A stretch of DNA of 60,025 nt, the filler included, from Jimgerdemannia flammicorona (taxonomy: Eukaryota): assembly GCA_003990765.1 (NCBI GenBank). It is 2 parts of 2 records of this genome, joined end to end, with 100 filler letters (N's around TTAATTAATTAA, not from the genome) between each part and the next. Parts side by side here need not be neighbours in the genome. Positions count along the whole stretch, not along the records: positions 30,065 to 60,025 come from RBNJ01000461.1; 1 more part is not named here. One strand, given 5' to 3'. Position numbers and translations under genes: made by a program. Of the stretch, positions 11,960-56,900 are shown one piece after another. Within the stretch, counting starts at the first letter, position 1; each line of letters starts with the position of its first letter. The notes beneath the pieces are model-generated. The model did not search any database. It saw only the letters and a program-made list of their open reading frames with translations, and had not been told where the DNA came from.

Positions 11960-13345
11960 AGTAAAGAGAGTAAAAAAGACAATTGTAAGACCTCTGCCTA
12001 TACTATCTATCAGATTGAGGATAGAATCTTTGAGACTATTATTAATACAGGGGCAGGAGAATGCCTTTTTAGTAAGAAAGTAATAGACTGTCTAGATTGA
12101 AAAATTGAAGAAGTTATAAAATTGATATTTGTTAAGCAGATAGTATAAGAGCCATCCTTTTGGAAAAGATATATGAAATATCTTTATCATGTTTAGAAGA
12201 GCAACCATTCTGATAGATATGATTGTCATAAATACTACTAATTATAATATTCTTATTAGCAATTAGTGGCTTTATAAGATTAAGACTATAATTGATATAA
12301 ATTTTCAGAAAATACAAATTATCTACTAAGAACAAAAGATATAAATTTCAATCAATATCAATAAAGAAGTACTATATAAGATAGAGAAATAAGATAGTAA
12401 GCAAAAAGAAGCTTATATGATAACTACTCAGAAGAAAAGAAGAAAATCAGATAGATTAGTAAAGAAGATTGATATAAGAAGATTACTAAGAATATATTAT
12501 ATAAAAAGTCTGTCCTCACAGAATTCAGCAATACTATATAAAGCATATAGATGAGTACTATTAATATATTGCTAAGATCTATAAGATTTACTATAAAGAG
12601 AAGGAAAAAAGGCAGAAGTAGTAAGAAAAGAAAGTCCAGGAGAATAAGTCACCAGTTCTCTTAGAGAATAGTAATGATGAAGAAGAAATCAAGATCAAGA
12701 TTTAGAAAATTTATCCTGATGTAGTTTTGTTAGAATATAAGTCAGAAAATATAGCTAGAATAAATATCACCATAGTTAAAGAAATAGTTCTTGAACTCCA
12801 GACAACTACTCTACTTATAACTGACCTAGAGATAACTATTTCCAAGGACTATATTGGAATACTTAAGACAAGAAGTGATCTAGTCAAAAGTGGAATTTCT
12901 ATAGAAGAAGGAGTTATCAATTCTAATTATATTAAAGAAATTCTACTCATTACTAAGAACTATAACTCCATAATTCTATTTATAGTCAAGAAAGACTATC
13001 TGGTATAAATACTAATCTTTCTAATACTATAACTCAAGATCTTAGAAGTAAAGAAGCTATAAGAAATAAAAAGAAGAAGGAAATGATTTAGATCTACAAG
13101 AAGAGGAGTTTTTGTTAATATTAAGATTACTGAATTAAACTATAAGAAGGAGAAAATCACAGATAAGTATAACTATACTATAGGAAATGAATTTTTATTC
13201 AAGAAAGAACTCAAGAAGCTATTTTATAAATTCAAAGATATTCTTACTACTGATTTCAAAGATATTAAAAAAAAGACACTATATTACTATTATAATATAG
13301 ATACAGGAGTCACTGAGCCAATCTACTAAAGAGTGAGACTAATGA
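11960..13345 (+). mobile_element. Heavily mutated family-A-like Ty3/gypsy fragment: protease - CPH module - dUTPase - RT start
   Basis: IINTGAGECLFSKKVIDCL matches IIDTGTGGYLISKKAIDCL at ~41620; VCPH at ~12510; LKTRSDLVKSGISIEEGVINSNYIKEI dUTPase; colinear with ~41600-42950. Confidence 0.85.
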
Positions 13346-29826: not shown

Positions 29827-29964
29827 TTTTTCTCTCTTCTCTTCCTCCCCTCTTCCAAACAACCTCGTCCAAACATCTTTCTTATCCATACTTCATTCGT
29901 GATCCTGGAACAGATAACGGTTCCCGCGATGATCATGAGCATTATGGTTGGGATCTTTGTCTTC
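29827..29964. repeat. Contig-end copy of the sequence at 1-139
   Basis: Direct alignment; follows a ~24-T homopolymer. Confidence 0.95.
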
Positions 29965-30063
29965 NNNNNNNNNNNNNNNNNNNNNNNNNNNNNNNNNNNN
30001 NNNNNNNNTTAATTAATTAANNNNNNNNNNNNNNNNNNNNNNNNNNNNNNNNNNNNNNNNNNN
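29965..30063. other. Artificial contig linker (N44-TTAATTAATTAA-N43, six-frame stop)
   Basis: N runs flank the standard all-frame-stop spacer; the two sides are 29964 and 29962 bp long. Confidence 0.97.
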
Positions 30064-32160
30064 NCGGCTGCATACAGGTCATATCCAGCTGCTTTCTGAC
30101 TTCCTTTGGTTGGGGCCTTAGCAGTTTGTCTTAACTTGACAAAGTCTAGTATTCTGGTGGTCAGGTTGTTGAGGTGGTGCAGAGTGGTAACAGTTGCTCT
30201 TATTGCTGTTCAGGGTTTTTGGTTAGGGCAGGCACTGGCCATGTGACCTGTCTTTCGATAATAGAAGCATACTCCACTTCTTCGAAGTTTGTTTCTTTCG
30301 CCTTCAGTAAGTTTCTTGAAGGTACTTGGTTGGGTGGATTTATGATTTCTAGGTGTCCAAGAGGTGGATGTAGAGGGAGCTCGGAATGCTTTATGCTTGG
30401 GTTCTTCTTTCTTGGTCCAAGTCTTTTCCTTGTTATTGAATTGTCTTCGGGGCAGAATTGGTCCAGTTGTTAGGATTCACTTGATCATAGTCTTGATTCT
30501 TGCTAAACACCATTATTGGTGATCACAACCAACTGGGCACCCTTGTTCTTGGATTTTTCTAGTAAGCCATTCAGGTAGAGCATCGAATAAATGGTCTGCT
30601 CTTGTATCATTTTGTGCTTCATCATTGGCGATATATCCTAGGCCAATAGTGTTCAGGAGTGACTCAAGTTTTATACAGAAGGTTTCGAATTCTTCTTTGC
30701 CATGTATATCAAATTTGAAGTTGCGGAGTTTTACTCAAGATTCGGCAATTATGGTTTTACTGTGGTATTGAGCATTCATGAGTTGTTTGAGTCCAGGGAC
30801 TGCAGGATGGGCTCCATATTCTGGGGCATTGTTTGCTGCATTCTGAGCAACTACTGCAGGTCGGGTATCCCATGTGAGGGGTTTTTCAGGAAGGGTTCAC
30901 CACCATTCTTCGACAGGTCCTCAGAAGAATGTAACAACTCGGCGGACATAGGCTGTAGTGGTAGCAAAGAGTTGTTCCAGAGTGTGGTCTTAATTGTTTA
31001 TCAGAACATGGTCAGCAACTCGCTCATTAGTCCATTGATTGGCTTCGAAGTTGGTGTCAACTATACTAATGAAGCTTTGGACCTCTTGTGCAGTACCATT
31101 AAAGGTAGGTAGGCTCAGATTTTTTGTAGGTCGGATCTGTTTGGCTAAGGTAGTAATGGTTGCTGCCATTATGGCTACCTGGGCTGTGAGGTCTAGAATC
31201 TGTTGGTTCACTATGTTGTTTACTGGAGGTGGTTGGACTGCTGGTAGTGGTGTTACTGATACTACTTGAGGTACTGGTGCAGAGTGTGATGGGGTTCTTT
31301 GGGTCTGTGTAAGTTGCTAGAGTAGTAGTTGTGGGTCTGGAGTAAGGGCTTGATAGATAACTGTTTGTTACTATGTAGGTGTATTCTGTCCTGATGGGAG
31401 TACGTCTCCTTCAGTGGTATATCCGAGATCGAATTCAGTGAGATATTCCTCCTCTTCTTCAGTTTGGTTCCCGTGTAATTGGGTTTGCTCAGTATCAAAG
31501 TAGACAGAATCAGTTGTATATCTGATTTCAGATGGACTTAATTCAAAGTCAAGTTCCAGTTTGGTATTGATTTCAGATTCAGGTAGGGCTGTAGCAGGGC
31601 CTGCTTCAGGTTCGGTGTCAGGTAGTTGATGAAGGATTTCTCTTGCTTCTTCTTTAAGAATATGGCAGGCCTTGCTGTTCTGGAATCGGTAGTATAATGC
31701 AGTCTTGGTCCTGGTATGGTGAAAATCAGTAGAGTTGAGCCACTTGGCTATAGAGGCTTGGGCTTCATGAGGAACTAAGGCTAGAAAGACTGCTGCTGGT
31801 TGTCCTAGGTTGCTCAGATTTGTGGAGCTGACAAAACTCTTGTTGAGGAGAGTAAAGAAGGCTTCAATAAGATCTTCTTCATCTTGACTTGCTGGGTGTA
31901 GTGCAAGGAGTTCGGTGAATAGGGTTTCACCTATTTGCTGGTTTAACCAGAGTACTTCTTTCTTTGAATGAAGTTTATCCCACTTGTTGCAGGTGTGGAG
32001 GTCAAATTGTCCTTATATGTCAGGTTCAATTCTCTCCAGATTATTAGATGGTTCAGGATAAATTCCAGTTCAGAGGTTGGGCTTTATACCAACTTGTAGG
32101 AATTCTCAGAAGGGTTTGTAGCGAGATGAGAAAGTGTCTTGAAGCAGAATTGGATTGTAA

Positions 32161-32176: not shown

Positions 32177-34238
32177 TATAAGAGAATTGCTTTTTAGGGT
32201 AACTGTTACGTAGTTCTGGAAAGGTTTTCTGGATATTCTAGATATTCTGGATGACTGTTTTCTTATGGTCAAGATCAATTTCATATAGAGTATGTCCTCT
32301 ATACTTATTGATTTCAAGTTCGGGTTGATGTCTCAACCAAAGTCCTTCTTTGGAACTAGTTCTGGATGTTCAGGATTTCCATATTTCAGGAAGTTCAAGA
32401 AACTAAGACCAGCTTAGTTGAATCGGCATATTGCTGCAGACAATACCCAATTAGGAATTTTCATAACAGGGTTAGGAGTGGGACCTAATGGGGAGCAGGT
32501 TTACTTAAGAGTGGTTTGTGGATTATTGAATAGGTTTATTCACTATTCATGATATTGCTATACTAGGAGTAGTTGTGTGAAGGGGTATTGTGGGGAAGTA
32601 TTCAGGAATGTTTTTGTGTATTTGAGTCTGAGATTCTGAAGTCTGGGGGAGGGGGTGTTTATACTAGTGAGGGGCTATCTGGACTATGCTAGATATGGAT
32701 ATAGCACTAAGTGCCTTGCTGAGTCGGAATGCAGTCACATAGTACAAGTGTAATCTGATATATCAAGAGATCGTCTGACTGCTGAGTCAGTTCACAGTCA
32801 CATCATACAATGCTAATCTAACTATACTATGACTGCTAGGCTATTTATGGGTTTAGGCACTGTCTGGGTAGTCCTCGATGACATTACCATCGATTGCATT
32901 ATCTCTGATAAAGTAGTCATCTAGGAAGAGTGGTTCACGGATTACTTCTCCTTGTTCGCTGAGGTAATAATACATTGGAACTTCGTCTCTGTCCCACAAG
33001 ATGGCATCATCAGTCTCATATGCTGGATAAGGTGTTGGTGGGCAAAGGAGGGGTACATCATTTTCACTTTCGTTGGATTCACTGTCTGCATACCTTCTGT
33101 AGGTTACAGCACTATGAGTCACAGGGTTATAGTAAGCTGGTGGCTGTGGTTCATGTCACTCATACTCAGGTGGTGGAGTGGTTGGTTCAATCTCGAGGGT
33201 TGTCTGGAGGTACAGATTATATTCTCTGGTCTCTTCATTATAGTTGAAGTAATCAGGGGTGAATGCTGATTGGTATTCGTACCAGTGGTCATTGTCCCAA
33301 TAAGTCTCGTATGTAGTTATGAACTGTTGTAAGTTCATCAGCAAGATTGGCAGAGTGATCAGGGTTGGCAGAGATCCTTGGCTAGAGGTCATGTTGGCAT
33401 CAGAGAGATCATTATCTTCTACTTCATCTTCATCAAAGTGGATTATATTGTAGATATCCTTCATGGCGTATCCAACTTGGGGTATTTGTAGGATATGATC
33501 ATTAGAGTGTGGGAAGGTTCTATCTGTAGTTTCGACATACTTGAGGTACTTCTGGTTGAGTTCTTATATCATGTCATCGATTTGACCATAAGACAGGTAG
33601 CAACCATTTTGCTGGTAGTAACTCGGAGGCAGGGAATAATGGTACTGTACTCATAGAAGAGTTCTCGATGTTTGTGGGTGATGAGCTTCTGGTGTTGAGA
33701 CATCTGGGTAATGTCTGTATCATGGTGGTGTTTGACCATGTCTTCCAGGAGGTGGCCAATCTGGTAGTAGCTTGAGATTTGTCTGATTCGGTGGGCCTTG
33801 CTAAGCATGTTCAGAGCATTCCATTGGGCTTCCATGAAGTAGAGGGGGGCTAGGCTATGGATATTCATGAGGGGCAGAGGGGGTGTGGCTTGGTTGATAA
33901 TGGTATTCCAAATGTCAGTGTGGATATAGGTATAGATCTCAGTAGTCATGTTTGTATGTTTGGAAGTTGTAGTTGTTGTTTGTTTTTAGTTCTCTGGTTC
34001 AATATGTTTCGGTGCTTGGTATATATACATTTGATCCTAATTGGTAAGATTCTGTTTGTGTAAATCTTGTATTCTGTGACTTTGTATTGACTCAGCTTTG
34101 TGCACTGTAACTTTGGTTTGACTCAGCTTCATGATCAAGCAGGTGATTTCCAGATTTGTTCAGAGGTCATATGTGATTTCAGTGGCTTGTTCAGAGGGTG
34201 ACGTATAATTTCAGTGGCTTGGAGGTTGTGCGCTTACA
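32177..34238 (-). repeat. Family B LTR, long type B1 (2062 bp)
   Basis: TGTAAG...CTTACA termini (one mutated to TATAAG); homologous copies at 37229-38184, 44890-46317 and 50567-51458. Confidence 0.92.
32853..33949 (-). pseudogene. ORF embedded in LTR B1 (~365 codons; one frameshift and a few stops)
   Basis: ORF-track pieces 33949-33569, 33464-33156 and 33122-32853 join; the 50.8-kb copy reads through the frameshift (VAILLYGQIDNMIQEL); TATATA ~70 bp upstream. Confidence 0.8.
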
Positions 34239-37228: not shown

Positions 37229-38184
37229 TATAAGAGGGTTACTTATTAGAGTAACTGTTACATAGTTCTGGAAGAGTTTTCTAGAAGTTCTGAATATTCT
37301 GAAAGATCATTTTCTTAAGATTAAGATCAATTTCATATAGAGTACATCTTCTATACTTATTGATTTCAAAATTAGATTAATGTCTCAACCAAAGTCCTTT
37401 TTCAGACTAGTTCTAGAGATTCAGGATTTTCCATATTTCAGGAAGTTTAAGAAACTAAGGTCAGCTTAGTTGAATTGGCATATTGCTGCAGACAATACCC
37501 AATTAGGAAATTTTATAATAGGGTTAGGAGTGAGATCTGACAGAGAGCAGATTTACTTAAAAGTGGTTTGTGGGTTATTAAATAGGTTTATTTGCTATTT
37601 ATGATATTGCTATACTAGGAGTAGTTGTATAAAGGGATATTGTGGAGAAGTGTTCAGAATTGTTCTTGTCTCTTTAAGTCTGAGATTCTGAGATCTAGGG
37701 AGGGAGTATTTATACTAGTGAGGGGCTATCTGGACTATGCTGAATATGGATGTAGCACTTAGTGCCTTGCTGAGTATGTTCAGGACATTCTATCAGATCT
37801 CTATAAAGTAGAGAGATGCTAGGCTATAGATATTCATGAGGGGTAGGAGAGGTATGGCTTGGTTGATAATGGTATTTCAAATGTCAGTACAAATATAGTT
37901 ATAGATCTCAGTGGTCATATTTATATATATATTCAAGAGTTGTAGTTGTTTGTTTAGTTTGTTGTGGTTCTTCATTTCAATATATAGAGTTTTCAATATA
38001 TATATTTTTGGTCCTAATTGGTAAGATTCTGTTTATATAGATCTTATATTCTGTGACTTCAAGTTGACTTAGCTTTGTAATCTATAACTTTAGTTTGACT
38101 TAGTTTCATGATCTTACATGTGATTTTCAGATTTATTCTAAGAGTGATATGTAATTTTAGTGGCTTGGAGATTATATACTTACA
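37229..38184 (-). repeat. Family B 3' LTR, internally deleted (956 bp), with adjacent PPT
   Basis: TATAAG...CTTACA ends; polypurine tract on the - strand at ~38185-38200. Confidence 0.88.
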
Positions 38185-38784
38185 ACTCTTCTCTTCTTAG
38201 CTTTTGATATCCTCATTGAGGTCTTCATTTTTGATCTAGTATTATTATACCATTTGGATGATCAAAAGTCTGATAATATCTTTTTTTCTCAGAAAGTAGC
38301 ATGCTTATAGTATAGTTATCTAATGTGTTGAATTTATATATTAAAGGGTCATATGTTCAATATCATATATCAGAAGTAATTCTGATATCATTTACTACTA
38401 GAGAATTTCCTTTAAGGAATCTTCTTAAATATCTATGTCTCATTTCTCACTAGTGGTATGGAAAGAATAGGCTGGCTTTCAGTTTTGCTATTTTTCTAAA
38501 GGATCATATTCTTTTATCTTGACTTACCAAGTTCTTGATTATTGTAACAGTGACTCCAGAATGATGACATCAGCACAGGAGACAGCCTTTCCTTACAAGC
38601 CACCAGATCAGAACACAAGAAGATCATATGGTATACAAGATGAGCAATGATGACCAACTGTGAGTCATTGTGACCACAGTATAAGCATCCTGAAGAATAT
38701 AAAAGAAGGATCAAGGAACTGCAGTAGCAGCAACCAACAAGAACCACCAATCCCAAATTAGCTCAAAGACTTACCATAAATAAA

Positions 38785-39600
38785 ATACCTACTGCCTGCT
38801 AAACCTCAAGGTCAAGAAACCACCAAAGTATCTCAGTTGAAGAAAGGATGTTCCAAGACATCAGAAGAGCCATGAGGACCTGCTCAAGAAGGACTCCTAG
38901 TGTCAACCTGGGTACTGCAGACCCCTATCACTTTATCCTCTACCACTATGAAATGGAAACAAGGATCACCATTGCTACTGAATGCCTCCAAATATAGCAG
39001 GAGTATGAAATAGGAAACCTCCTCTGCTAGGAGTTCCCACAGACCAGCCCTCAAGAGCTACAAGATGCCACTCTCATGGACATTTGTGAGACAAGAATGG
39101 TCAAGAAGATCCATCAGATCTTCAGGCATGCACTATGGTCAATCCCCAACTTGGAGTATATTAGAGTCTCAGACTTCAAAGACCTGTCATCCCACCATAT
39201 CAATGCACTAGAAGCCAGGGTGGCCACAGAAGCTCAGTCCACTATCACCCTCAACAATGATGAAGTAAAAGACTTCTGGCATCTCATCCTTCAGGATAAC
39301 CCACACCAATTCCTGCAAGGATTGATCGCAGTATTCCAAGGCCCAAGCATCTAGGTTAGACCTCCCCAAGACCCCACATTTGTCCCTTATTTTGTAGAAG
39401 AGAACCTCATAGACTGGAGAGCCCCAGACCTCCTCCCCACTGCCAAACATGATGATGTCATTGGCAATGATGTCATCCTATGCAACATCAAAGTACACAA
39501 AATGTGCAACCTACATAATGAATTCATGGATCTCATCTCCTTCAGTGATGATGATGATAATGATGATAAAGTCCCCATAGTCCTGAACTTTCTACTCTAA
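38785..39600 (+). pseudogene. ORF embedded in family A 5' LTR (start mutated to ATA)
   Basis: Colinear with 47452-48261; TATAAAA at ~38698. Confidence 0.8.
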
Positions 39601-42600
39601 GTTCTTTGTTATACTAAATAATGCCAGCACTGGTATTCTGATGTAACACTGGATAATATCAGCACTGATATTCTGAGGTGATGCAAAATTGTTCCAGCAC
39701 TGGTATTCTGATGTAATACTAAATTATACCAGCATCCTGAACCTGTACAACCATCAGTACCGACCCTGGAACTTAGTAGTTTTAGTTATTGAAATTTATA
39801 TTTAGCTTTATATCTTAGCAACCATTGAATTATATTTTGTATAAATACTCCTCTTATTTCCTCTGAAATAAAGTCAGTTCCAGTTTCACTTACACACACT
39901 TCCTTACAAGTAATCTAAGAGATAATAAGACAGTTAAAGATAAGAAGTTTGAGGACTATAAGATCTTGGGAAGGCACTCCAATAAGAACTTGCTTATAAC
40001 AAACTTGAGTTAGTCTAAGAGATATATCTTGAAGAAAATCTGGCATATTTGAAGGACTTAGCAACTACTATGTGACAACTTGGTGCCCATTGGCTGGTGA
40101 TTCAAGATAAATCCCTCACTTTCAAGCTGAAAAACAAACAACCCCCACAACAACTACCCTGACTACAAGAGTCGCTCCTGCAAGAATTCAAAACAAGATG
40201 GAAATGTGTTCTCCTACATTCTATGAATATACTACTGAAGAGTCAATCCTGACCTTCATTGAAGACTTTGAACAATTTGCCACCATACAAGCCCTTGGTG
40301 TGGATACTCAATTGGCCCTTCTACCAGTCAGCCTCAGAGGACCTGCCAGAGACAAGTTCAATGCAGCCACTATTACTAATACTAGTGCAGCCAAACTTGC
40401 CAACATGAAGACCTTTCTCAGAATAATATATTATACCAAAGAGATCAAGCAAGCTCTCAAGAATCAACTCAATACTATCTGTCAGAGACTTAGTGAAGAT
40501 CCCAACTCATTCTATACCCAAATCTGCCACTAGATTGTCTTGGTTGGCTATGATGACCACCTCAAGGAACAAATAGCAGATTTAACTTTCCTTAAAGAAG
40601 TTCACTCTGAAATTGCCCTAGCAATCTGGTCTACCCTAGCTGCACTGACTCTTGATCAGAAAGTGGTCTTTGCACAGAGATATTGGACTACCAGATACCC
40701 TGCCAAATACTCAATAGAGAAAATAACTGGAATCAAGATAGAGCCATCAAAGCCAACTAGTATCTTACCCGCCACAGTTGTAAACAGACAACCAACCCCA
40801 CTTACCCCCAAGACAGCCAAAGCTGAACCAGTGGAAGAACTCACCAAGCAGTTTGCTGAGATGACTGCACACCTTGGTGATGTTGTTAGAGAAGTCTGAA
40901 GTGCCAACAGGAGACCAGTGCAGAGATTTGCAGCTGCTACAGAAGAATACAATATTACATGCTTCAGATGTGGAGAAGAAGGCCACTATGTAAAGAATTG
41001 CTTGACCAAAACAAGACACAAAGCCCAACCAAGCAATGCTAGCAGAACTAGAGAAAAAATCAATGCAGTAGTCATCGAGGAGATTGGTGACACTGATGAT
41101 GAAGAATACTATGAGGAGCTTGAATTCTACCCTGCTACTGAAGGTACCAGAACCTGGTCCAAGCCCTATGACAAGAAGAGCAACAGCAAGCCAGTTAGAA
41201 GACCAAAGAAGACTCCAGCCATCACTATTCAAAGCAAGACCCAACCTGAGGAGATTGATCAAGACATAGAGTTAGATGAAGCTGCCTGCTAAATTATTGA
41301 AGACACTACTCCAGTCTCAGGAGAAAGTAAAAGCAAGAAGGAACAGAAGCTGCACAAAACCAAGATCCATCAGTATGATATCTACAAGGACCTCAAGGAA
41401 CAGAAGATCAATGCTACCTTTGGACAACTAGCTGAAGTCCCTGCCTTCAGATAGCAGTTGAGAGTAGGACTTGCAACTATTACTAAGAATCAAAAGTACA
41501 AGATTGTAGAAGCTCATAATGCAGGAAGAATCTGAGAACTCAGGTAAAGAATCCAAAGACTAGCGCAAGACATCAGCCTATACTCCATGTCAGATTGAAG
41601 ACTGTATCTTTGATTCCATCATTGATACTGGTACTGGAGGATACCTCATAAGCAAGAAGGCAATTGACTGCCTAGGCTGGGACATTGAAGAGTCTACCAA
41701 GATGGTCTATATCACAGCAGATGGTATACGAGCTACTCCTCTTAGCAAAATCTGAGAAGTCCCCATCAAGATAGGAGGAGCTATATACCATCCCAGTAGA
41801 CATAATTGTTATAAGCACCACCAACTATGACATCCTCATTAGCAACCAATGGCTTCATAAGGCCAAGGCCATCATTGACCTCAATGTCCAGAAGATGCAG
41901 ATCAACTACAGAGGAAGAAAGGTACAAGTTTCTATCAATGTTCATAAAGGAGTCCTATCAGACATGGAGAAAGGAGATGAAGAAGATACAGGTCTTCATG
42001 CACTTAGTGAATAAGAACAAGAACAAGACACCCAAGCTCACAGATGAGCAGTGGTACAACAAGATCATTGATGGCTATGCCCCTCAAGAAAGATGCCCCC
42101 ATAGTACTAGGATGTACTGCTCTGAACACCTGAATGACTGCTGGTCTTATATCAGTGAAATCAGGAAAATCCATCAATAGAAACATGAGCAAGAAGCTGC
42201 TGAAGCAAAAAGGAAAGCTGAAGAAGATGACCAGCCCCCAGAGCTCCAAGCTGACAGCAATGATGAGGAGGAACAAGAATCAGACATCACCCTCAAGGTC
42301 AAGAAGTTTCACCCTGAAGCCAAGATCCCAGAATATAAGACTGAAGGAGCCATAGGAATGGACCTTGCCAGCATTCAAGATGCTACCCTCAAACCACAGA
42401 CCACTACCCTACTTGGTACTGAAATTGGAGTCAAGCTGCCAGAGAACTATGCCAGAATTATCAAGACCAGGAGCAGTCTGGCCAAAAGCGAAATCTCAGT
42501 TAAAGGAGGAGTAATTGACCCTGATTACACTAGTGAGATCTTCCTCATAGTCAGAAATCACAACCACACCACCCCCTTCAAAGTCAAGAAGCATGACAGG

Positions 42601-44889
42601 ATTGGCCAGATGCTGATCCATGAAATCAAGAAGCCCAAGATCATTGAAGCCATCAAACTCATCAAGACCAAGAGAGAAGAACAAGGCTTTGGATCTACTG
42701 GAAGAGAAGTCTATGCTACCACCAAGATTACTAAACTCAAGCATAAGAAAGACAAGGACCAGAACAAGCATACATATACCATTGGAGAAAACTTTCTCCT
42801 GGAGGAAAAACTTCTCAAGATCCTGCACCAGAATGAAGGAGTACTTGCTATAGACTTTAAGAATATCCACAATCAAGAACCCAAGTACTATTATGAAGTT
42901 GACACTGGTGATACCAAGCCCATCTACCAGAAAGCCAGACCTATATCACCTGCCTACAGAGAGTGGCTGTGAGCAGAACTCAAGGAAATGGAAGAAGCTG
43001 GAATCATCAAGCAATCTATCAGCCCCTGGGCTTCACCCATTGTCCTTGCCCCGAAAAAAGGAAGCAAACCTGGAGAATTTGTGCCAAGACTCTGTATTGA
43101 CTACAGGAAGCTCAATACCATTACCAAGAAGGATAGGCAGCTCTTGCCGAATATTCAAGAGATCCTTACCACCCTTGAAAGTAAAGCCAAATACTACACC
43201 ACCTTGGATCTGTTCTCAGACTTCCATCAGATTGGTCTCACTCAAGATACCAGTGAGAAATCAGCCTTCATCACACCTAATGCCACCTATATCTACCTGT
43301 GAATGCCATTTGGAATGTGCAATGCCCCAGCAAGTTTCTAGCAAATGATGAACAGAGTCTTCAGCAATGAGATTGGAAAATGACTCTTTGTCTATGTTGA
43401 TGATGTGATCATCTTCAGCAACACTGCACAGAAATATGTCAACCACATACAGCTAGCCCTCAAGAAGCTCAAGGAGCATGGCCTCTACATCAAGCCCAAG
43501 AAATACAAGTTTGCAGCTCAGGAAATCGCCTACCTAGGACACCTCATCAACCAGACCGGAATCCATACAGACCCTATAAAGATTGAGGCTGTTGCAGCCT
43601 ATCTGAGACCCAGAACAACTACAGAAGTCCATGTCTTCCTTGGACTGGCCAGCTACTATAGAAGATTCATCAAAGAATCCTCCAATATTACAACACCTAT
43701 CTATGAGCTACTGAAGAAGGAAATCAAATTCGAATGGACCAAGGAGCACTAAGAAACTTTCAATGAACTCAAGACTAGGTTGACCCAAGCACCTATCCTC
43801 AGAAGACCAGACTGGAATCTAGAATTCATCCTGCAGACAGATGCAAGTGCTATAGGACTTGGAGCAGTCCTAGCTCAGAAGAAAGATATATATGAATATA
43901 TCATCTCTTATGTAAGCTGAGGTATCTGTAGAGCAGAACAGAACTACAAGTCATGCAAGCTCGAATGCTTAGCAGTAGTTTGGACAGTAGACAAGTTCCA
44001 CTACTACCTAGCTGAGAAACACTTCACCATTCAAACAGACCACTCTGCTCTCACCTGGCTATTCCACACTCTGAACTCTAAAGGAATATATGTCAGATAG
44101 ATCTACAGACTGCAAGAGTATGACTATACTATTAAGCACTGCTCAGGAAAGACCAATACTAATGCTGATGCACTCTCAAGGACACCCCAAAACACCCCCA
44201 TCAAGACTATTCAACATGAATAAGGAGCTATACTATGGATTAATCAGCTATCTTGGGCAGCGGAAGATGCCCAACCACCTCAAACCTTGGACTATCAATA
44301 TCATCAGCTGGACTTGGAAACAGTTTGAACTAGATAACACTATACTCAGAAAAGGAGGAAAGCTAGTAATATCCAAACACAAGAAGTATCAAATAATGAA
44401 GGAAGTACATGAGCAAGGACACTTAGGAGGAACCAACACATATGACAAAGCAAGAAGAACTATATGGTGGTCTAAGATGGAAGAAGACCTGTGCCAATTT
44501 GTCAAAGGGTATGACAAGTGCCAAAAACAGAAATAAGATCAGTAAGACCAAGTACCCAGATCATCAAGAATTGAGTCTATCCCCTTTCATCACATTGCAA
44601 TAGATATCATTAGACCACTACCAGTAATACTATCAAGAAATCACTATATTATAGTTATTATAGACCTCTTCACCAAATGGATAGAGGTAGGAGCATTACA
44701 AGAAGTCAATGCCCTCTCTATAGCTAACTTCCTGTACTGAGAAATCATCTGCTGCTACAAGACACCAAAGCAAATCACAACAGACTAAGGCACAGAATTT
44801 GTCAATGGATTCCATGAGATAATATATCAGAAATACAAGATCTAGCACATCAAGACCACTGCATACCACCCTCAAGGAAATGGACAGAC

Positions 44890-46317
44890 TGTAAGAGGGT
44901 TGCTTTTTAGGGTAACCGTTACATAGTTCTGGAAGGGTTTTCTGGAAGTTCTGGATATTCTGGAAGACTGTTTTCTTATGGTCAAGATCAATTTCATATG
45001 GAGTACATCCTCTACGCTTATTGATTTCAAGATTGGGTTGATGTCTCAACCAAAGTCCTTTTTTGGACTAGTTCTGAATGTTCAGGATTTTCCGTATTTC
45101 AGGAAGTTCAAGAAACTAAGACCAGCTTAGTTGAATTGGCATATCGCTACAGACAATACCCAATTTGGAAATTTCGTGATGGGGTTAGGAGTAGGACCTA
45201 ACAAGGAGCGGATTTACTTAAGAGTAGTTTGTGGATTATGGAATAGGTTTATTTGCTATTTATGATATTGCTATACTAGGAGTATTTGTGTGAAGGGGTA
45301 TTGTGGGGAAGTGCTCAGGAGTTGTGTTCGGATTGTTCGAGTCTGAGATTCTGAGGTCTGGGGGAGGGGGTATTTATACTAGTGAGGGGCTATCTGAACT
45401 AGGCTAGATATGGATGTAGCACTAAGTGCTTTGCTGAGTCGGAATGCAGTCACATAGTACAAGTGTGATCTGATATGTCAAGAGATCGTCTGACTGCTGA
45501 GTCAGTTCACAGTCACATCATATAAGGCTAATCTAACTATATTATGACTGCTAGACTATTTATAGGTTTAGGCACTATCTGGGTAGTTCTCGATGATATC
45601 ACCATCGATTGTATCATCTCTGATGAAGTAGTCGTCTAGGAATAATGGTTTGCGGATTACTTCTCCTTGTTGGCTGAGGTAATAATACATTGGAACTTCA
45701 TCTCCATCCCACAGGATAGTATCATCTGTTTCGTATGCTAGATAAGGTGTTGGTGGGCGAAGAGCTTCTGGTGTTGAGACATCTGGGTAATGTCTGTATC
45801 ATGGTGGTGTTCGACCATGTCTTCCAGGAGGCAGCCGATCTGGTAGTAGCTTGAGATTTGTCCGATTCGGTGGGCCTCACTAAGCATGTTCAGGGTGTTC
45901 CATCGGGCTTCCACGAAGTAGAGGGGTGCCAGGCTATGGATATTTATGAGGGGCAGAGGGGGTGTGGCTCAGTTGACAATGGCATTCCAAATGTCAGCGC
46001 GGATGCGGTTGTAGATCTCAGTGGTCATGTTTGTGTGTTTGGAAGTTGTGGTTGTTGTTTGTTTTGGTTCTCTGATTCGACACGTCTCGGTGCTCAGTAT
46101 ATATGCATTTGGTCCTGATTGGTAAGATTCCGTTTGTGTAGATCTTGTGTTCCGTGACTTTGTATTGACTCAGCTTTGTGTGCTGTGACTTCGGTTTGAC
46201 TCAGCTTCATGATCAAGCAGGTGATTTCCAGATTTGTTCGGAGGTCGCATGTGATTTCAGTGGCTTTGTTCAGAGGGTGACATGTAATTTCGGTGGCTTG
46301 GGGGTTGTGCGCTTACA
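44890..46317 (-). mobile_element. Family B solo LTR (1428 bp, ~634-bp internal deletion) inserted in family A integrase
   Basis: TGTAAG...CTTACA; 5-bp TSD CAGAC (44885-44889 / 46318-46322); integrase GNGQT|ERTNK is restored on removal. Confidence 0.97.
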
Positions 46318-47451
46318 CAGACAGAGAGAACCAACAAGACCCTCAAGAACATCCTAGCAAAGATCTCAGAGATATATGAGAATTGGGATAACTACCTCCC
46401 AACTGCCCTCTCTGTCCTATGAGATATACAGTCACAGAGCACACACTTTATTCCAAGAGAGCTACTCTTTGGAGAAGAAGATTCTGATAGAACATCAGCC
46501 ACAAATCTAGACCTAACTTAGAGATGGGTTGATGTAGAAATCCAGAGACTATACTAAATCAGGAAGAAGGCTGAAGATTACATCATCAAGTCATAAGTAC
46601 TGACAAGGAAGAATGCAGAAAAGAATCATAAGGCCCTAGAACCCATCCAAATCAGAGAAAAGGTTCTACTGTATCGAAATATGGTAGAAGCCTCATGGTC
46701 ATGAAAACTGGAGCCCAAATGGGAAGGACTCTTCTATATGCAAGATATCAAGGGAACTACCTTCTGGCTTAGAAAAATCTCAGGGACCATACTGCCTACC
46801 ACGGTATATAGGAACAGACTCAAGAAGTACTATGAACCTATATAAGAGAAGCAAAACATGATGACTGCCCATGAGGTTCTAGTCTGCAAATCATAACAGT
46901 ATATCCCGTGACCAGCAGGCTATCTGTCTGGACCATTCTCTAAGAGATACAGTACTGGTAACTACTTATCTATGAGACTTTTGAAGTTAGAGGAGTTCGA
47001 ACTATCAACTGATTGGTCAAGATCAGAATCAGGCCCTTGCTCTATATGAAGGGAGCAACCCTTCACCATTATGCCAAAATACAAAGGGAAGATGCCAGCC
47101 AATAAATACCACTTTTCGACCCCTTGCCAGAGGTTATAGGATCAGCAAATTTCTCAGGACTGGACCAATGAATAAGGATGCTTAGAAAGATCCTTATTTA
47201 GGAGGAAGATGTAATGGTGACTCCAGAATGATGACATTAGCACAGGAGACAGCCTTTCCTTACAAGCTACTAGATTGGAACACAAGAAGATTATATGGCA
47301 TATGAGATGAGCAATAATGACCAACCATAAGTCATTATGACTACAATACAAGCATCCTGAAGAATATAAAAGAAGGATCAAGAAACTGCAGTAGCAGCAA
47401 CCAACAAGAATCACCAATCCCAAATTAGCTCAAAGACTTACCACAAATGAA

Positions 47452-48261
47452 ATGCCTGCTGCCCACCAAACCTCAAGGTCAAGGAACCACCAAGGTATTT
47501 CAGTCAAAGAAAGAATGTTCCAAGACATCAGAAGAGCCATGAGGACCCACTCAAAAAGGACTCCTAGTGTCAACCTGAGTACTGCAGACCCCTATCACTT
47601 TATCCTCTACTACTGTGAAATGGAAACAAGGATCACCATTGCTATCGAATGCCTCTAAATATGGCAGGAGTACAAAATAGGAAACCTCCTCTGCCAGGAG
47701 TTTCTATAGGCCAGCCCTTAAGAGCTACAAGATGTCACTCCCATGAATATATATGAGACAAGAATGGCCAAGAAGATCTATCAGATCTTCAGGCATATAC
47801 CATGGTTGATCTCCAACTTGGAGTATATTAGAGTCTCAGACTTCAGAAATCTGTCATCCTGCTGTATCATTGTACTAGAAGCCAGGGTGGCTACAGAAGC
47901 TCAGTCCACAATCACCCTCAATAGTGATGAAGTAGAAGACTTCTGGCATCCCATCCTTCAGGATAATCCAGACCAATTCCTGCAAAGATTGATCTCAGTA
48001 TTCCAAGGCCCAAGCATCCAGGTTAGACCTCCCCAAGACCCCACATTTGTTCCTTATTTTGTAGAAGAGAACCTCATAGACTGGAGAGCCCTAGACCTCC
48101 TCTCCACCACTGAACATGATGACATCATTGGCAATGACATCATCCCATGCAATATCAAAGTATGTGAAATGTATGACCTATATGATGAATTTACAGATCT
48201 CATCTCCTTCAGTGATGATAATGATGATGAAGCCCCCATAGTCCTGAACTTTCTGCTCTAA
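47452..48261 (+). pseudogene. ORF embedded in family A 3' LTR (270 codons, 3 in-frame stops)
   Basis: ORFs 47452-47658 and 47743-48261 are in the same frame; the stops correspond to CAA/CAG in the other LTR; TATAAAA ~85 bp upstream. Confidence 0.85.
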
Positions 48262-48738
48262 GTTCTTTGTTACACTAAATAATGCCAGCACTGGTATTCT
48301 GATGTAACACTGGATAATACCAGCACTGGCATTCTGAGGTGACATGAAATTGTTCCAGCACCAGTATTCTGATGTGATACTAAATTATACCAGTATCCTG
48401 AACTTGAACAACCATCAGTGCTGACCCTGGAACTTAGTAGTTTTAGTTATTGAAATTTATATTTAGCTTTATATCTTAGCAACTATTGAATTATATTTTG
48501 TATAAATATCCCTCTTATTTCTTCTGAAATAAAGTCAGTTCTGGTTTCACTTACATATACTTCCTTGCAAGCAATCTAAGAGATAACAAGATAGTTAAAG
48601 ATAAGAAGTTTGAGGACTATAAGACCTTGGGAAGACACTCCAATAAGAACTTGCTTATAACAAACTTAAGTTAGTCTAAGAGATACACCTTGAAGAGAAT
48701 CTGGCATATTTGAAGGACTCAGTGACCACTATGTAACA

Positions 48739-50540: not shown

Positions 50541-50566
50541 ACAATAGCTGACATTTCCTTTTTATA

Positions 50567-51458
50567 GATTGTAAGTTTATCAGCAAGGTTGGCAGGATGA
50601 TCAGAGTTGGTAGGGATCCTTGGCTTGAGGTCATATCAGTATCAGAGGAATCATTGCCTTCTGCTTTATTATTATCAAACAAGATTATATTATAGACATC
50701 CTTCATGGTATATCCAACTTGGAGCATTTGCAGAATATAGTTATTGAGATGTGGGAAGGTTCTATCTGTAGTTTGAATATACTTGAGATACTTGTGGTTG
50801 AGTTCTTGTATCATATTATCAATTTGGCCATATAATAATATAGCAACTATCTTAGCAGTAGTAACTCAAAGGCAGGGAATAAAGGAGCTATACTTATAGA
50901 AGAGTTCTTAGTGTTTACAGGTAATGAGTTTCTAGTGCTAGGATATCTGAGTAATGTCAGTATCATAATAGTATTTGATTATATCCTCCAGGAGGCAGCC
51001 AATCTGATAGTAGCTTGAGATTTGTCCAATTCAGTTGGTCTTACTAAGTATGTTCAGAGTATTCCATCAGACTTCCATAAAGTAGAGGGGTGCCAGGCTA
51101 TAGATATTCATAAGAGGCAGAGAGAGTATGGCTCAGTTAACAATGGCATTCCAAATATCAGTGTAGATATAATTGTAGATCTCAGTGGTCATATTTGTAT
51201 ATATATTTAAGAGTTGTGGTTATTTGTTTTGTTTGTTGTAGTTCTCTATTTTGACATATCTGATACTTGGTATATATGCATTCAGTCCTGATTGGTAAGA
51301 TTCCATTTGTATAAATCTTGTGTTCTGTAACTTCAAGTTGACTCTGCTTTGTACACTGTGACTTTTGTTTGACTTAGCTTTGTGATCTTGTATGTGATTT
51401 CCAGATTCATTTAGGGAGTGATATGTGATTTCAGTGGCTTAGAGGTTGTGTGCTTATA
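50567..51458 (-). repeat. Partial family B1 LTR (5' portion with N-terminal half of the LTR ORF)
   Basis: Aligns with ~33325-34238; ends CTTATA. Confidence 0.85.
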
Positions 51459-53971: not shown

Positions 53972-56900
53972 TGTAAGAGGGTTGCTTTTTAGGGTAATCA
54001 TTACATAGTTCTGGAAGAGTTTTCTGGAAGTTCGGGATGTTCTGGAAGATCTTTTTCTTATGGTCAAGATCAATTTCATATGAAGTACATCTTCTATGCT
54101 TATTGATTTCAAGATTAGGTTAATGTCTCAACCAAAGTCCTTTTTCGGACTAGTTCTGGATGTTCAGGATTTTCTGTATTTTAGGAAGTTCAAGAAACTA
54201 AGACCAGCTTAGTTGAATTGGTGTATCACTGCAGACAATACCCAATTAGGAAATTTCATGAGAGGGTTAGGAGTGGGACCTAACAGAGAGTGGATTTACT
54301 TAAGAGTGAGTTGTGGGTTATTAAATAGGTTTATTTGCTATTCATGATATTGCTATACTAGGAGTAGTTGTGTGAAGGAATATTGTGGGGAAGTGCTCAG
54401 GAATTGTGTTCAGATTGTTCAGGTCTGAGATTCTGAGGTCTGGGGGAGGAGGTATTTATACTAGTGAGAGGCTATCTGGACTATGCTAAATATAGATGTA
54501 ACACTTAGTGCCTTGCTGAGTTGGAATGCAGTCATATAGTACAAGAGTGATCTGACATATCAAGAGATCATCTGACTGCTGAGTCAGTTCACAGTCATAT
54601 CATACAAGACTAATCTAACTATACTATGACTGCTAAGCTATTTATAGGTTTAGACACTATCTGGGTAGTCTTCAATGACATCACTATTGATGACATCATC
54701 TCTAGCAAAGTCTGAGCAGTTTTCTGACTTCTGACATCATCAGTTTCAAGATGTTGTCACTTCTATCTCTTGTAAGATTAAGGCTGTCCTTAGTGGCAGT
54801 GGTTGCACAAGGATAACAGGTCTTGGTTTTCTTTTTTTTTTGGTCTGCTGGTATATTTATAAGGACTGGCCATTCTTGTCTAGAGTGAGGGCTCCCAATG
54901 TTGCAGCTGGGGGTTTGAACCTCTTGGAAATGATATTTTCTGTAATCCAAGACAATTTCTAGTAGTAATATCTGTCATATGGATAGCTTGAGATTGGTTT
55001 TGATGATGTTGGCTTTCTTGAGTTCAGATGAAGCATCCATCACTCTCCAACAGAGGTGATACAAATAGAGCAAACGAAGTTGTTCAAATGTATTTTACTT
55101 CTGCTAAGTAATGAGGTCTTGTATAGTCACAGTGTATCTTGGTCTTGAGTTGATAAGTGCAGTTCATGAACCTTTTGATAGATGAGATAGGGTTCTTCTT
55201 ATCTCAATTTGAGTTTGGTACTTTTGGTTTCCTTTTGTAATAATACAGTATACCAAACTAGTTATAGTGGTTTGGAGTCAGTCTTGTGGTTATAGTACTT
55301 CTTCTAGTATTCTTGTATCTTGGCAGTAGGTTCTCGTGCTTGCTGGCGTATTTAATGTAACCAGATGATCTCTTCAGTAACTTATTTTGTAGTCTCATAT
55401 GTGGTTTCTAAATTAGTTCTGAGGATGCTATGCAATTTTGGTGGCTTGGAGGTTGTGTGCTTACAACTCTCTCCTTCTTAGCTTTTGACATCCTCATCAG
55501 GGCCTACTAATTTGTTCTGGTGTTGTTGTACCATTTGGATGGTTCTTGTGGTTGTATTTGTTGAGGATTTGTTCAAATTTGTATTCTTCTTGGTCATTAA
55601 TAATAACAGATACAGGTGGTTCTGTGGTTCGATTCAGAAATGTGTCTTGGGCTTTCTGGAGTAGTGGTCTGACATGGCTGTCAACTTTGGAAAAGTCTTC
55701 TTCAGAGTTCTCAGGTTCTCCTTTGGATAGATAGATGGAGATAGCAAAGAGAGGGCATTTCTTGACCAATTTCTTAAGTTGTAGCTTGTTGATGTAAGTG
55801 ATCTTTGGTCCAGGGTCACTAGAATTGAGTGGGTCCTTTTTGCCTTATAGTTTGAAGTTATGGCATCCTTTCTTGATGGTCAGAGAATTGTTTACCCAAT
55901 CAATCATAGAGTTCTCTTGTTTCAACCATAGGGTTCCAAGGATGATTTCATTATCAGGAAGTGGTACAATCTGGAGGGTAATATGTACTTCGTAGTCTCC
56001 AATTCGGAAGGGTAGGTTGTGGACTTCTCTGCTAATATGTAACATGTGAGGTTCCATCAGCTGTGGCAACTGCTTGAGTTTGTTGTACTGGAGAGGTGAA
56101 GACCTTAAGTCTATTGACTGTTTCTTCATTAATAAAGTTGCCTGAGGCACCACTGTCTATTATAATCTTAACAGGTGCTCAGTTGATAAAAGCTTTAAGT
56201 GTAAGTAGTTTGTCTGATCCAATAGTGGTGATTTCAGTTATAGGAGCTTTCCTTCTATTGGTTCTTCTTTATGCCAGTTCATTGACACAAGAGAAGCAAT
56301 TATCAATTATTCGGGAAGAGTACATTCCAATGCCATGAGGGCATTGGCCACTTGGTATATATCCATCTTTGATCTTCTTGTAGAATTGTTCTTTTTTGCT
56401 CATAGTAGATTGGGCTGAGGTCTTGTTCGATGAGCCAAATCCTTTGGATCCTTGGATGGTAGGTAGTAGTTCAGGGACTTCCTTGACTATCAGGGTTGAC
56501 TCAATTTTTTCAAATAGGATCTGGGCAATGTAGAAACCTATAGGGATCTTGAAGGGTGTCCAACTATGGTTTCGGATGAGGACAATAATTTCACCTGTGT
56601 AATCCTTGTCAATGACTCCTCCTTCTACTAAGAGTTCCTTCAATGCTAGGCTGCTGTAACAGCATATTCTTTCAACATGTCCCTCAGGAATTTGGATACT
56701 GATTCCTGTATAGACTTGCTTGACTTCTCAGTTGGAAACTGTAGCTTCTTCAGCTGCATACAGGTCATATCTGGCTGCTTTTTGACTTTCTTTGATTGGG
56801 GCCTTGGCAGTTTGCCTTAACTTGACAAAGTCTAGTGTTCTGGTGGTCAGATTGTTGAGTGGTGCAGAGTGGTAACAGTTGCTCATGTTGCTGTTTGGGG

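What the first reader, a model, noticed from the sequence alone, without database searches (positions are those of the whole stretch)
42050..42700. Unrecognised CPH-x12-CxxC module attached to retrotransposon dUTPase
Seen: family A has WYNKIIDGYAPQERCPHSTRMYCSEHLNDCWSYISEI, where the last Y could be a TGT>TAT-mutated Cys. Family B has FYKKIKDGYIPSGQCPHGIGMYSSRIIDNCFSCVNEL (56270-56390). A third remnant, VCPH, is at ~12510. All three are directly beside the dUTPase. Known: dUTPase in fungal gypsy elements is uncommon but described (e.g. Tuber Tmt1). I know no such Cys/His module in gypsy pol. Inference: a small Zn-binding domain that travels with the dUTPase.
Basis: partly seen in the sequence, partly recalled or inferred. 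Interest (0 to 1): 0.7.

Follow-up and report, generated by a model that had tools for sequence, protein, structure and literature searches.

The report
Small zinc finger beside retrotransposon dUTPase
Several distantly related jumping-gene families of a fungus carry the same small, unnamed zinc-finger-like domain right next to their dUTP-destroying enzyme, on either side of it, where it most likely serves as a docking tag for that enzyme.

Summary
Confirmed. A 45-residue module, C-x-H-x12-C-x2-C between two helices, lies at 42043-42171 (+) and 56266-56394 (-), with a decayed third copy near 12510. The genome holds 1,754 exact motif matches (control 0), in five Ty3/Gypsy families of two RT lineages. 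All 30 sampled copies have a dUTPase beside them, in two orders: protease-module-dUTPase (22) and dUTPase-module-protease (8). The four ligands are kept in 15, 14, 15 and 15 of 15 diverged sequences under purifying selection. The Tyr in the window's copy is decay of a Cys. No Pfam, NCBIfam, PHROG or PDB sequence match passes a cut-off. AlphaFold folds it confidently; the core's only structural neighbours are classical C2H2 fingers, at weak scores. Its 'recognition' helix is acidic, so base-specific DNA binding is unlikely. 'Travels with the dUTPase' holds one way only: a sixth family has a dUTPase without it, and joint transfer is neither shown nor rejected. Best reading: a single-zinc finger that stays fused to the dUTPase and docks it on a protein partner (about 45%). 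Zinc binding and partner are untested. The scan noted this module before on other DNA of this genome.

The parts
42043..42171 (+). The module, family A: helix 1, C-P-H knuckle (C 42094, H 42100), short helix, C-x2-C (C 42139; fourth ligand at 42148 reads Tyr in this copy), helix 3
42172..42303 (+). Charged, acidic linker between module and dUTPase; one stop codon at 42178 in this copy; poorly conserved between families
42304..42705 (+). dUTPase of family A (Pfam PF00692, E 4e-26), same frame as the module
41575..41960 (+). Aspartic protease of family A, frameshifted in this copy; directly upstream of the module (limits approximate)
40198..41530 (+). gag of family A with CCHC knuckle at about 40954-41001; several stops (limits approximate)
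42910..46833 (+). RT, RNase H and integrase of family A; the integrase is split by an inserted piece of family B at about 44897-46317
38543..40077 (+). 5' LTR of the family A element (89.6% identical to the 3' LTR); holds an extra reading frame at 38740-39597
47210..48738 (+). 3' LTR of the family A element, with the same extra reading frame at 47416-48258
56266..56394 (-). The module, family B (C 56343, H 56337, C 56298, C 56289); all four ligands present; a stop codon at 56269-56271 cuts helix 3 in this copy
56428..56835 (-). dUTPase of family B, upstream of the module, frameshifted in this copy (PF00692, E 5e-20 for the in-frame part)
55890..56208 (-). Aspartic protease of family B, downstream of the module; the element is internally deleted after it (limits approximate)
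11975..13340 (+). Decayed family D relic: protease, module (about 12460-12590; profile match E 7e-5) and dUTPase

Best explanation
The module is a real protein domain of about 45 residues: one zinc held by Cys, His, Cys, Cys in a beta-beta-alpha core like that of classical C2H2 fingers, with an extra helix in front and a long helix behind. It is an appendage of the dUTPase. It is made inside the Gag-Pol polyprotein, stays joined to the dUTPase when the protease cuts on either side of the pair, and so appears three times on the dUTPase trimer. There it acts as a docking tag for a protein partner (capsid, RT, integrase, a host factor, or another copy of itself), which keeps the dUTPase where reverse transcription takes place. 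It would work like the nucleocapsid part of the betaretroviral NC-dUTPase, but through protein rather than base contacts. Shown: conservation, selection, position, decay. Predicted: fold and metal site (about 85%). Inferred: staying fused (about 65%) and a protein partner (about 65%).
For: Ligands kept in 15/15, 14/15, 15/15 and 15/15 diverged sequences with one fixed spacing. pN 0.19-0.36 against pS 0.50-0.92 in all 10 family pairs, while the next 20 codons give pN 0.48-0.68 in the 3 pairs compared. AlphaFold mean pLDDT 86.7: helix, hairpin around C-P-H, short helix, long helix starting at C-x2-C. The spacing C-x-H-x3-M-x5-[LIVM]-x2-C equals the core spacing of classical fingers (recalled pattern; noted before the search). 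For the 36-residue core, the only 2 of 48,161 chains at Z 2 or more are C2H2 fingers, and 15 of the 24 listed Foldseek rows are C2H2 fingers. dUTPase beside 30 of 30 copies, in both orders, and in 10 of the 14 true database homologues. The dUTPase-module linker is hydrophilic and 8-30 residues long, while hydrophobic site-like motifs flank the pair (cleavage preference recalled). Helix position 6 is Asp/Glu in 13 of 15, position -1 is never Arg, net charge -3 to +2. Precedents: NC fused to dUTPase, proposed to hold it at sites of DNA synthesis (PMC4531489, section on beta-retroviruses); single C2H2 fingers with extra elements that mediate dimerisation (PMC12774644, abstract).
Against: Structure scores are weak: Z 2.2 (rmsd 3.6, 33 aligned) and Z 2.0 (rmsd 2.1, 28 aligned), Foldseek E 6-10, on a model of pLDDT 67. 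dUTPases work without the module in family F (28 of 30 loci) and in P0026, P0027, P0029 and P0030. P0007 has the module but no dUTPase in its frame. The module always touches the protease too, so position alone does not single out the dUTPase. Basic runs flank it in families A, B, D and E, which fits nucleic-acid binding. Cleavage sites were judged by eye. Homologues were found with a profile that rewards the same Cys, so their conservation is partly selected for.
Confidence: 0.45

Rival explanations
1. Same zinc finger, same fusion, but it tethers the dUTPase to RNA or DNA without reading bases, through helices 1 and 3 and the basic flanks: a closer functional copy of the betaretroviral NC-dUTPase.
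For: The nearest folds are nucleic-acid-binding fingers. Lys/Arg are common at the position before the first Cys (11 of 15), in helix 1 and six residues after the last Cys. Basic runs lie just before (A, D, E) or after (B) the module. NC-dUTPase keeps nucleic-acid binding (PMC4531489; PMC1802613, abstract).
Against: The core is neutral to acidic, with Asp/Glu on the helix face that reads DNA in C2H2 fingers. An acidic linker follows in A, D and E. Families B and C already have a CCHC knuckle just before the dUTPase.
Confidence: 0.25
2. The module is a separate accessory domain with its own job (for example at the protease, or binding a host protein). It sits beside the dUTPase only because the protease region is where these elements tolerate inserts, or because both came in once from one donor.
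For: It touches the protease in both orders. Its identity pattern does not follow RT or dUTPase: C is 58-62% like A, D and E but 40% like B, although the RT of C is nearer to B (54% against 41-43%). P0007 lacks a dUTPase. A common origin of the module-bearing dUTPases is not shown.
Against: No module without a dUTPase among 30 genomic copies. The link survives a reversal of order in two RT lineages. Identity differences on 45 residues are noisy.
Confidence: 0.2
3. The Cys/His set binds something other than one zinc: two metals (some families add Cys and His, giving C-x2-C-x-H-x5-C-x2-H-x3-C-x2-C), or iron, and the fold belongs with RING- or B-box-like cross-braced fingers.
For: Seven possible ligands in family C and P0003. 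The extra Cys and His are each in 8 of 15 sequences. One weak hit of P0009 to a Vps8 RING model, E 0.002, under the cut-off.
Against: The extra residues are missing in family B and in 7 of 15 sequences, and no eighth ligand is kept. No RING or B-box chain appears in the fold searches, which is weak evidence.
Confidence: 0.1

Closest known systems
dUTPase-bearing fungal Ty3/Gypsy elements (PosPlaTy3-3, -4, -5 of Postia placenta; elements of Phanerochaete; Tuber Tmt1), PMC2864245
   Same: Ty3/Gypsy pol with a dUTPase whose position differs between families; that paper reports it at the N-terminus, at the C-terminus, or between PR and RT, from independent sources (passages seen).
   Different: In that paper's main text 'zinc' does not occur and 'cysteine' occurs once, for the Gag CCHC; its supplements were not read. 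Here one extra domain accompanies the dUTPase in two RT lineages and in both orders.
Classical C2H2 (beta-beta-alpha) zinc finger
   Same: Twelve residues between ligands 2 and 3, hydrophobic residues at +4 and +10 from ligand 2, predicted hairpin plus helix; nearest structures are ZFAT ZF6 and IKZF1 ZF2.
   Different: Ligands are C-x-H and C-x2-C, not C-x2-4-C and H-x3-5-H. It is single, has an extra N-terminal helix that the model needs (pLDDT 87 with it, 67 without it and the C-terminal tail), and its recognition positions are acidic.
Betaretroviral nucleocapsid-dUTPase fusion (M-PMV, MMTV)
   Same: A zinc-binding domain fused to a trimeric dUTPase next to the protease; proposed to place the enzyme at the site of DNA synthesis (PMC4531489).
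   Different: NC has CCHC knuckles, is basic, comes from Gag and is joined by a frameshift. The module is unrelated in sequence, neutral, in frame, and can lie on either side.
Single protein-binding C2H2-type fingers (UBZ domains; CGx-phi dimerising fingers, PMC12774644)
   Same: One finger with added elements, used for protein contacts.
   Different: Other ligand sets; the Asp between ligands 3 and 4 of UBZ3/UBZ4 (recalled) is absent; no sequence match.

Membership tests
dUTPase-bearing Ty3/Gypsy LTR retrotransposon (the carrier) | LTRs; gag, protease, RT, RNase H, integrase in this order; a dUTPase in pol | tested here: met
   LTR pair 38543-40077 and 47210-48738; Pfam domains in window copies and in other copies
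Chromovirus branch (family B) | chromodomain after the integrase | tested here: met
   PF00385, E 5e-17, in L061; none in the integrase of L175, of the A/D/E lineage; not tested for C and F
Classical C2H2 zinc finger | ligand pattern C-x2-4-C-x12-H-x3-5-H (recalled) | tested here: not met
   C-x-H-x12-C-x2-C in all rows of A2 but one
Classical C2H2 zinc finger | hydrophobic core residues at +4 and +10 from the second ligand (recalled) | tested here: met
   Met/Ile in 15 of 15 at +4; Leu/Ile/Val/Met in 14 of 15 at +10
Classical C2H2 zinc finger | beta-beta-alpha fold | tested here: inconclusive
   predicted hairpin and helix; nearest chains are C2H2 fingers but at Z 2.0-2.2 and E 6-10
DNA-reading C2H2 finger | base-contacting, often basic residues at helix positions -1, 2, 3, 6 (recalled) | tested here: not met
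   -1 Cys/Ser in 13 of 15, 2 Glu in 9 of 15, 6 Asp/Glu in 13 of 15
Any zinc finger | binds zinc through the four residues | not testable with these tools
Gag nucleocapsid knuckle (zf-CCHC) | C-x2-C-x4-H-x4-C | tested here: not met
   other pattern; the elements have a separate true knuckle
UBZ3/UBZ4 ubiquitin-binding finger | Asp between ligands 3 and 4 (recalled; a look-up in PMC8784325 found no passage) | tested here: not met
   no Asp at either position in 15 of 15
RING / B-box cross-brace finger | eight ligands, two interleaved sites (recalled) | tested here: not met
   four ligands are general, at most seven in any row; Vps8 RING hit under the cut-off in one protein
ZAS anti-sigma domain (zf-HC2) | invariant H-x3-C-x2-C (recalled) | tested here: not met
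   the His is present in 8 of 15; no zf-HC2 hit
Betaretroviral NC-dUTPase | Gag NC joined to the dUTPase by a gag-pro frameshift | tested here: not met
   single reading frame in undamaged stretches; the module is not NC
Betaretroviral NC-dUTPase (works like) | appended domain stays fused in the mature protein | tested here: inconclusive
   hydrophilic linker and flanking site-like motifs, judged by eye

The most novel reading that the evidence does not exclude
The module is an undescribed Cys-His-Cys-Cys branch of the classical zinc-finger fold that, with the dUTPase, forms a portable two-part tool passed between distant Ty3/Gypsy lineages and re-ordered on the way. It would be a second, independent invention of 'zinc finger plus dUTPase' beside the betaretroviral one, and would point to a partner that links uracil control to the particle or to a host defence that deaminates cytosine.
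Probability: 0.25. Interest if true: 0.65.

Novelty: new variant of a known kind. Interest (0 to 1): 0.45.

Why it matters
Why some LTR retrotransposons carry a dUTPase is an open question (PMC2864245 calls its role and origin unclear). A small conserved domain that stays beside the enzyme through a reversal of order in two RT lineages gives a handle: find its partner and one learns where and when the dUTPase is needed. It also adds an unnamed ligand set to the best-known zinc-finger fold, and a marker for annotating these families. The reach is modest: it is an accessory domain of mostly decayed elements, seen in one genome and about 15 metagenome proteins, with no function shown.

Tried and rejected
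Pfam on two modules at E up to 10: nothing. On 15 rows: nine scattered families, each in 1-2 rows; the first row's only hit (zf-C5HC2, E 0.02) is under its cut-off. NCBIfam: one row at E 0.12. PHROGs: best is an unnamed family in 3 of 15 rows, E 0.001, not followed. PDB by sequence: 2 hits at E above 1. ESM Atlas: no usable hit, and three unnamed clusters at 0.79. Phage records and viral contigs: no relative. Fold searches with the 64-residue model gave only helical bundles, best Z 3.8, among them anti-sigma factors; no RING, B-box or BED chain was listed, which does not exclude them. Three of the 17 profile hits (P0016, P0017, P0019) are repeat or low-complexity noise and were dropped. A Tyr-bearing subfamily of A: not supported; the label needs 10 changes on a star-like tree of 39 copies (shuffled mean 13.2; 23 of 500 shuffles as low), though no strongly supported branch forces more than one. 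Recent DNA exchange of the module between lineages: not supported, synonymous sites are near saturation (pS 0.50-0.92). A general second metal site: rejected, since the extra ligands are in about half of the rows. Searches of G000 with P0014's module and with P0009 returned matches at 40-53% identity and none closer; I take them for the known families (many places recur) but did not read those loci. Whether the module binds the dUTPase could not be modelled, so that question is open. Paper searches that showed no description of the module: dUTPase+gypsy+retrotransposon+fungi, dUTPase+LTR retrotransposon+chromovirus, dUTPase+transposable elements+Mucoromycota, LTR retrotransposons+additional domains+zinc finger+dUTPase (0 papers), Metaviridae+dUTPase+zinc finger. 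The library lacks most subscription papers, including the Tmt1 and Phanerochaete reports, and no TE library (Repbase, GyDB, REXdb) could be searched.
Full report
Observation. The window comes from a fungal-type genome (a Zn2Cys6 regulator and a lipin gene lie in its first half) and is rich in decayed LTR elements. The pattern CPH-x12-C-x2-[C/Y] occurs twice in the window and never in 60 shuffles. The two modules align without gaps at 42-46% identity over 50 residues. A 30-base pattern for the first half matches 1,754 places in G000 and the reversed control none.

Anatomy. Longer copies show two layouts. Family A reads gag-CCHC-protease-module-acidic linker-dUTPase-RT-RNase H-integrase. Family B reads gag-CCHC-dUTPase-module-protease-RT-RNase H-integrase-chromodomain. 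Further searches gave family C (layout of B) and families D and E (layout of A), and one metagenome contig, L175, with an open 1,281-residue frame of the E type. The RTs of A, D and L175 are 70-76% alike and form one side of a 100/100 branch; B, C and F are 54% alike; across the two groups identity is 39-45%. So two distant lineages carry the module, in mirror order, always between protease and dUTPase. The remnant at 12510 is a decayed D copy.

The Tyr. In the window's A copy the fourth ligand is TAT. It is Cys in 12 of the 30 most similar copies, a sample biased towards Tyr, and in 7 of 12 A copies picked on the first half only. In those 30 pattern-picked loci the third ligand is Cys in 27 and the fourth in 24, and all 9 departures are TAC or TAT. 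Against one natural copy, differences are mostly C>T and G>A (1,541 of 2,108), and G>A is frequent after C and after T. Tyr needs 10 changes on a star-like tree of 39 copies; there is slight clustering (23 of 500 shuffles as low) and no strong branch forces more than one origin.

Conservation and range. A profile of A and B found 17 proteins among 1.84 billion; 14 are true homologues and 3 are noise. A wider profile added four more, three with a dUTPase. The ten clusters looked up come from ENA, JGI, Logan and SRC entries, and only one carries a name; two of the 14 are close to families C and D, so the number of independent hosts is unknown. In 15 diverged rows the four ligands are kept in 15, 14, 15 and 15, at one spacing; the search favours such rows. 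Codon comparison is less circular: pN 0.19-0.36 against pS 0.50-0.92 in all 10 pairs of five families, against pN 0.48-0.68 in the 20 codons that follow, in the 3 pairs compared. Across the two RT lineages the module is 40-62% identical, the RT 39-43% and the dUTPase 37-42%; on 45 residues this is noisy, but the module is at least as well kept as the enzymes.

Does it travel with the dUTPase? One way, yes: 30 of 30 genomic copies have a dUTPase within 1.5 kb, 22 after and 8 before the module, and 10 of the 14 homologues carry one by Pfam. Of the other four, P0018 ends in what looks like a dUTPase start, P0009 and P0011 are too short to tell, and P0007 has none in 157 residues; its contig could not be read. 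The other way, no: of the 30 best dUTPase loci of G000, 28 belong to family F, which lacks the module (25 of them show the protease directly behind the dUTPase), one is a stand-alone gene and one is family B. Four of six further long dUTPase proteins are dUTPase-protease fusions without it. In a tree of 27 dUTPases the 16 module-bearing ones need two changes; holding them together costs 0.5 log units (p-AU 0.47), so one origin is allowed but not shown (six fragments under 95 residues were left out). Saturated synonymous sites speak against a recent exchange.

Fold. No family in Pfam, NCBIfam or PHROGs and no PDB sequence matches at a cut-off or a convincing E-value. AlphaFold with 22 rows gives mean pLDDT 86.7: helix 10-18, a small hairpin whose turn holds C-P-H, helix 36-41, and a long helix that starts at C-x2-C. 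That model finds only helical bundles. I then noted that C-x-H-x3-M-x5-[LIVM]-x2-C has the core spacing of classical fingers (recalled pattern) and folded the 36-residue core alone (pLDDT 67). Of 48,161 chains only two reach Z 2, both C2H2 fingers: ZFAT ZF6 (Z 2.2, rmsd 3.6, 33 aligned) and IKZF1 ZF2 (Z 2.0, rmsd 2.1, 28 aligned). Fifteen of the 24 listed Foldseek rows are C2H2 fingers, at E 6-10. Each score is weak; the agreement with a reading made beforehand is what counts. I could not measure the metal site in the model.

How it most likely works. On the C2H2 register the base-reading positions hold Cys or Ser at -1, mostly Glu at 2 and Asp or Glu at 6 (13 of 15), and the domain's net charge is -3 to +2. 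This lowered my first guess of nucleic-acid binding. The linker to the dUTPase is hydrophilic in both orders, while hydrophobic site-like motifs lie outside the pair (protease preference recalled, judged by eye), so the mature protein is probably module plus dUTPase, three modules per trimer. The betaretroviral NC-dUTPase is the precedent for an appended zinc domain, proposed to hold the enzyme where RT works (PMC4531489, passages and the section on beta-retroviruses; PMC1802613, abstract). Single C2H2 fingers with added elements can mediate protein contacts (PMC12774644, abstract). I put a protein-docking tag at 45%, a non-specific nucleic-acid tether at 25% (basic flanks), an independent passenger at 20% (it also always touches the protease; P0007), and another metal arrangement at 10%. 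Binding to the dUTPase or to itself remains unmodelled.

What is known. dUTPases in fungal Gypsy elements, at varying positions, are described (PMC2864245, passages; PMC2774666, passages; enrichment of the domain in Entomophthora, bioRxiv 2023.09.13.557621, one passage). Five searches of the paper library showed no account of this module, but the Tmt1 and Phanerochaete papers were seen only as references, supplements were not read, and no TE library could be searched. Two earlier notes of this scan describe the same module on other DNA of this genome; they are not independent evidence. New here are the C2H2-like reading of the core and the acidic helix.

Verdict. A real, selected, unnamed domain; very probably a single-zinc finger of the classical fold with a Cys-His-Cys-Cys ligand set; tied to the dUTPase by position but not required by it; function inferred only. 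New variant of a known kind, interest 0.45.

Noticed in passing
window 38740-39597 and 47416-48258 (+): Each LTR of the family A element holds a reading frame of about 290 codons with no Pfam match and an acidic tail.
   Followed up: partly
window 32856-33985, 37724-37927, 45571-46076, 50563-51201 (-); L063:607-1758: Family B-type elements carry an extra frame of about 380 codons after the integrase, with no Pfam match. It shares a short Y-[QE]-I-G-x-L-L look with the extra frame of family A, but BLAST gave no link at E up to 1.
   Followed up: partly
L175:5756-6256 (+): A 166-codon frame follows the integrase of the metagenome element; no Pfam match.
   Followed up: partly
L146-L174 (family F): A third dUTPase layout in the same genome: gag-CCHC-dUTPase-protease with no module and a linker of about 12 residues.
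   Followed up: partly
P0008 residues 151-168, P0024 residues 158-166, family B gag: The capsid end of families B and C and of P0024 has a conserved C-x-H-x3-C that looks faintly like the start of the module (profile E about 3-4); probably chance.
   Followed up: no
family A copies L001-L142 (39 rows): Decay is mostly C>T and G>A, strongest at CpG but also marked at CpA and CpC and weak at CpT, which hints at non-CpG methylation or a RIP-like process.
   Followed up: partly
P0007: A 157-residue protein with the module, no dUTPase, and a second Cys cluster at its end (H-x6-C-x-C-x2-C); context unseen.
   Followed up: no
window 44897-46317: A family B LTR piece is inserted in reverse into the integrase of the family A element.
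   Followed up: partly
window 29965-30064: Two runs of 44 N join separate contigs; 40-137 is repeated at 29865-29962 (96%).
   Followed up: no
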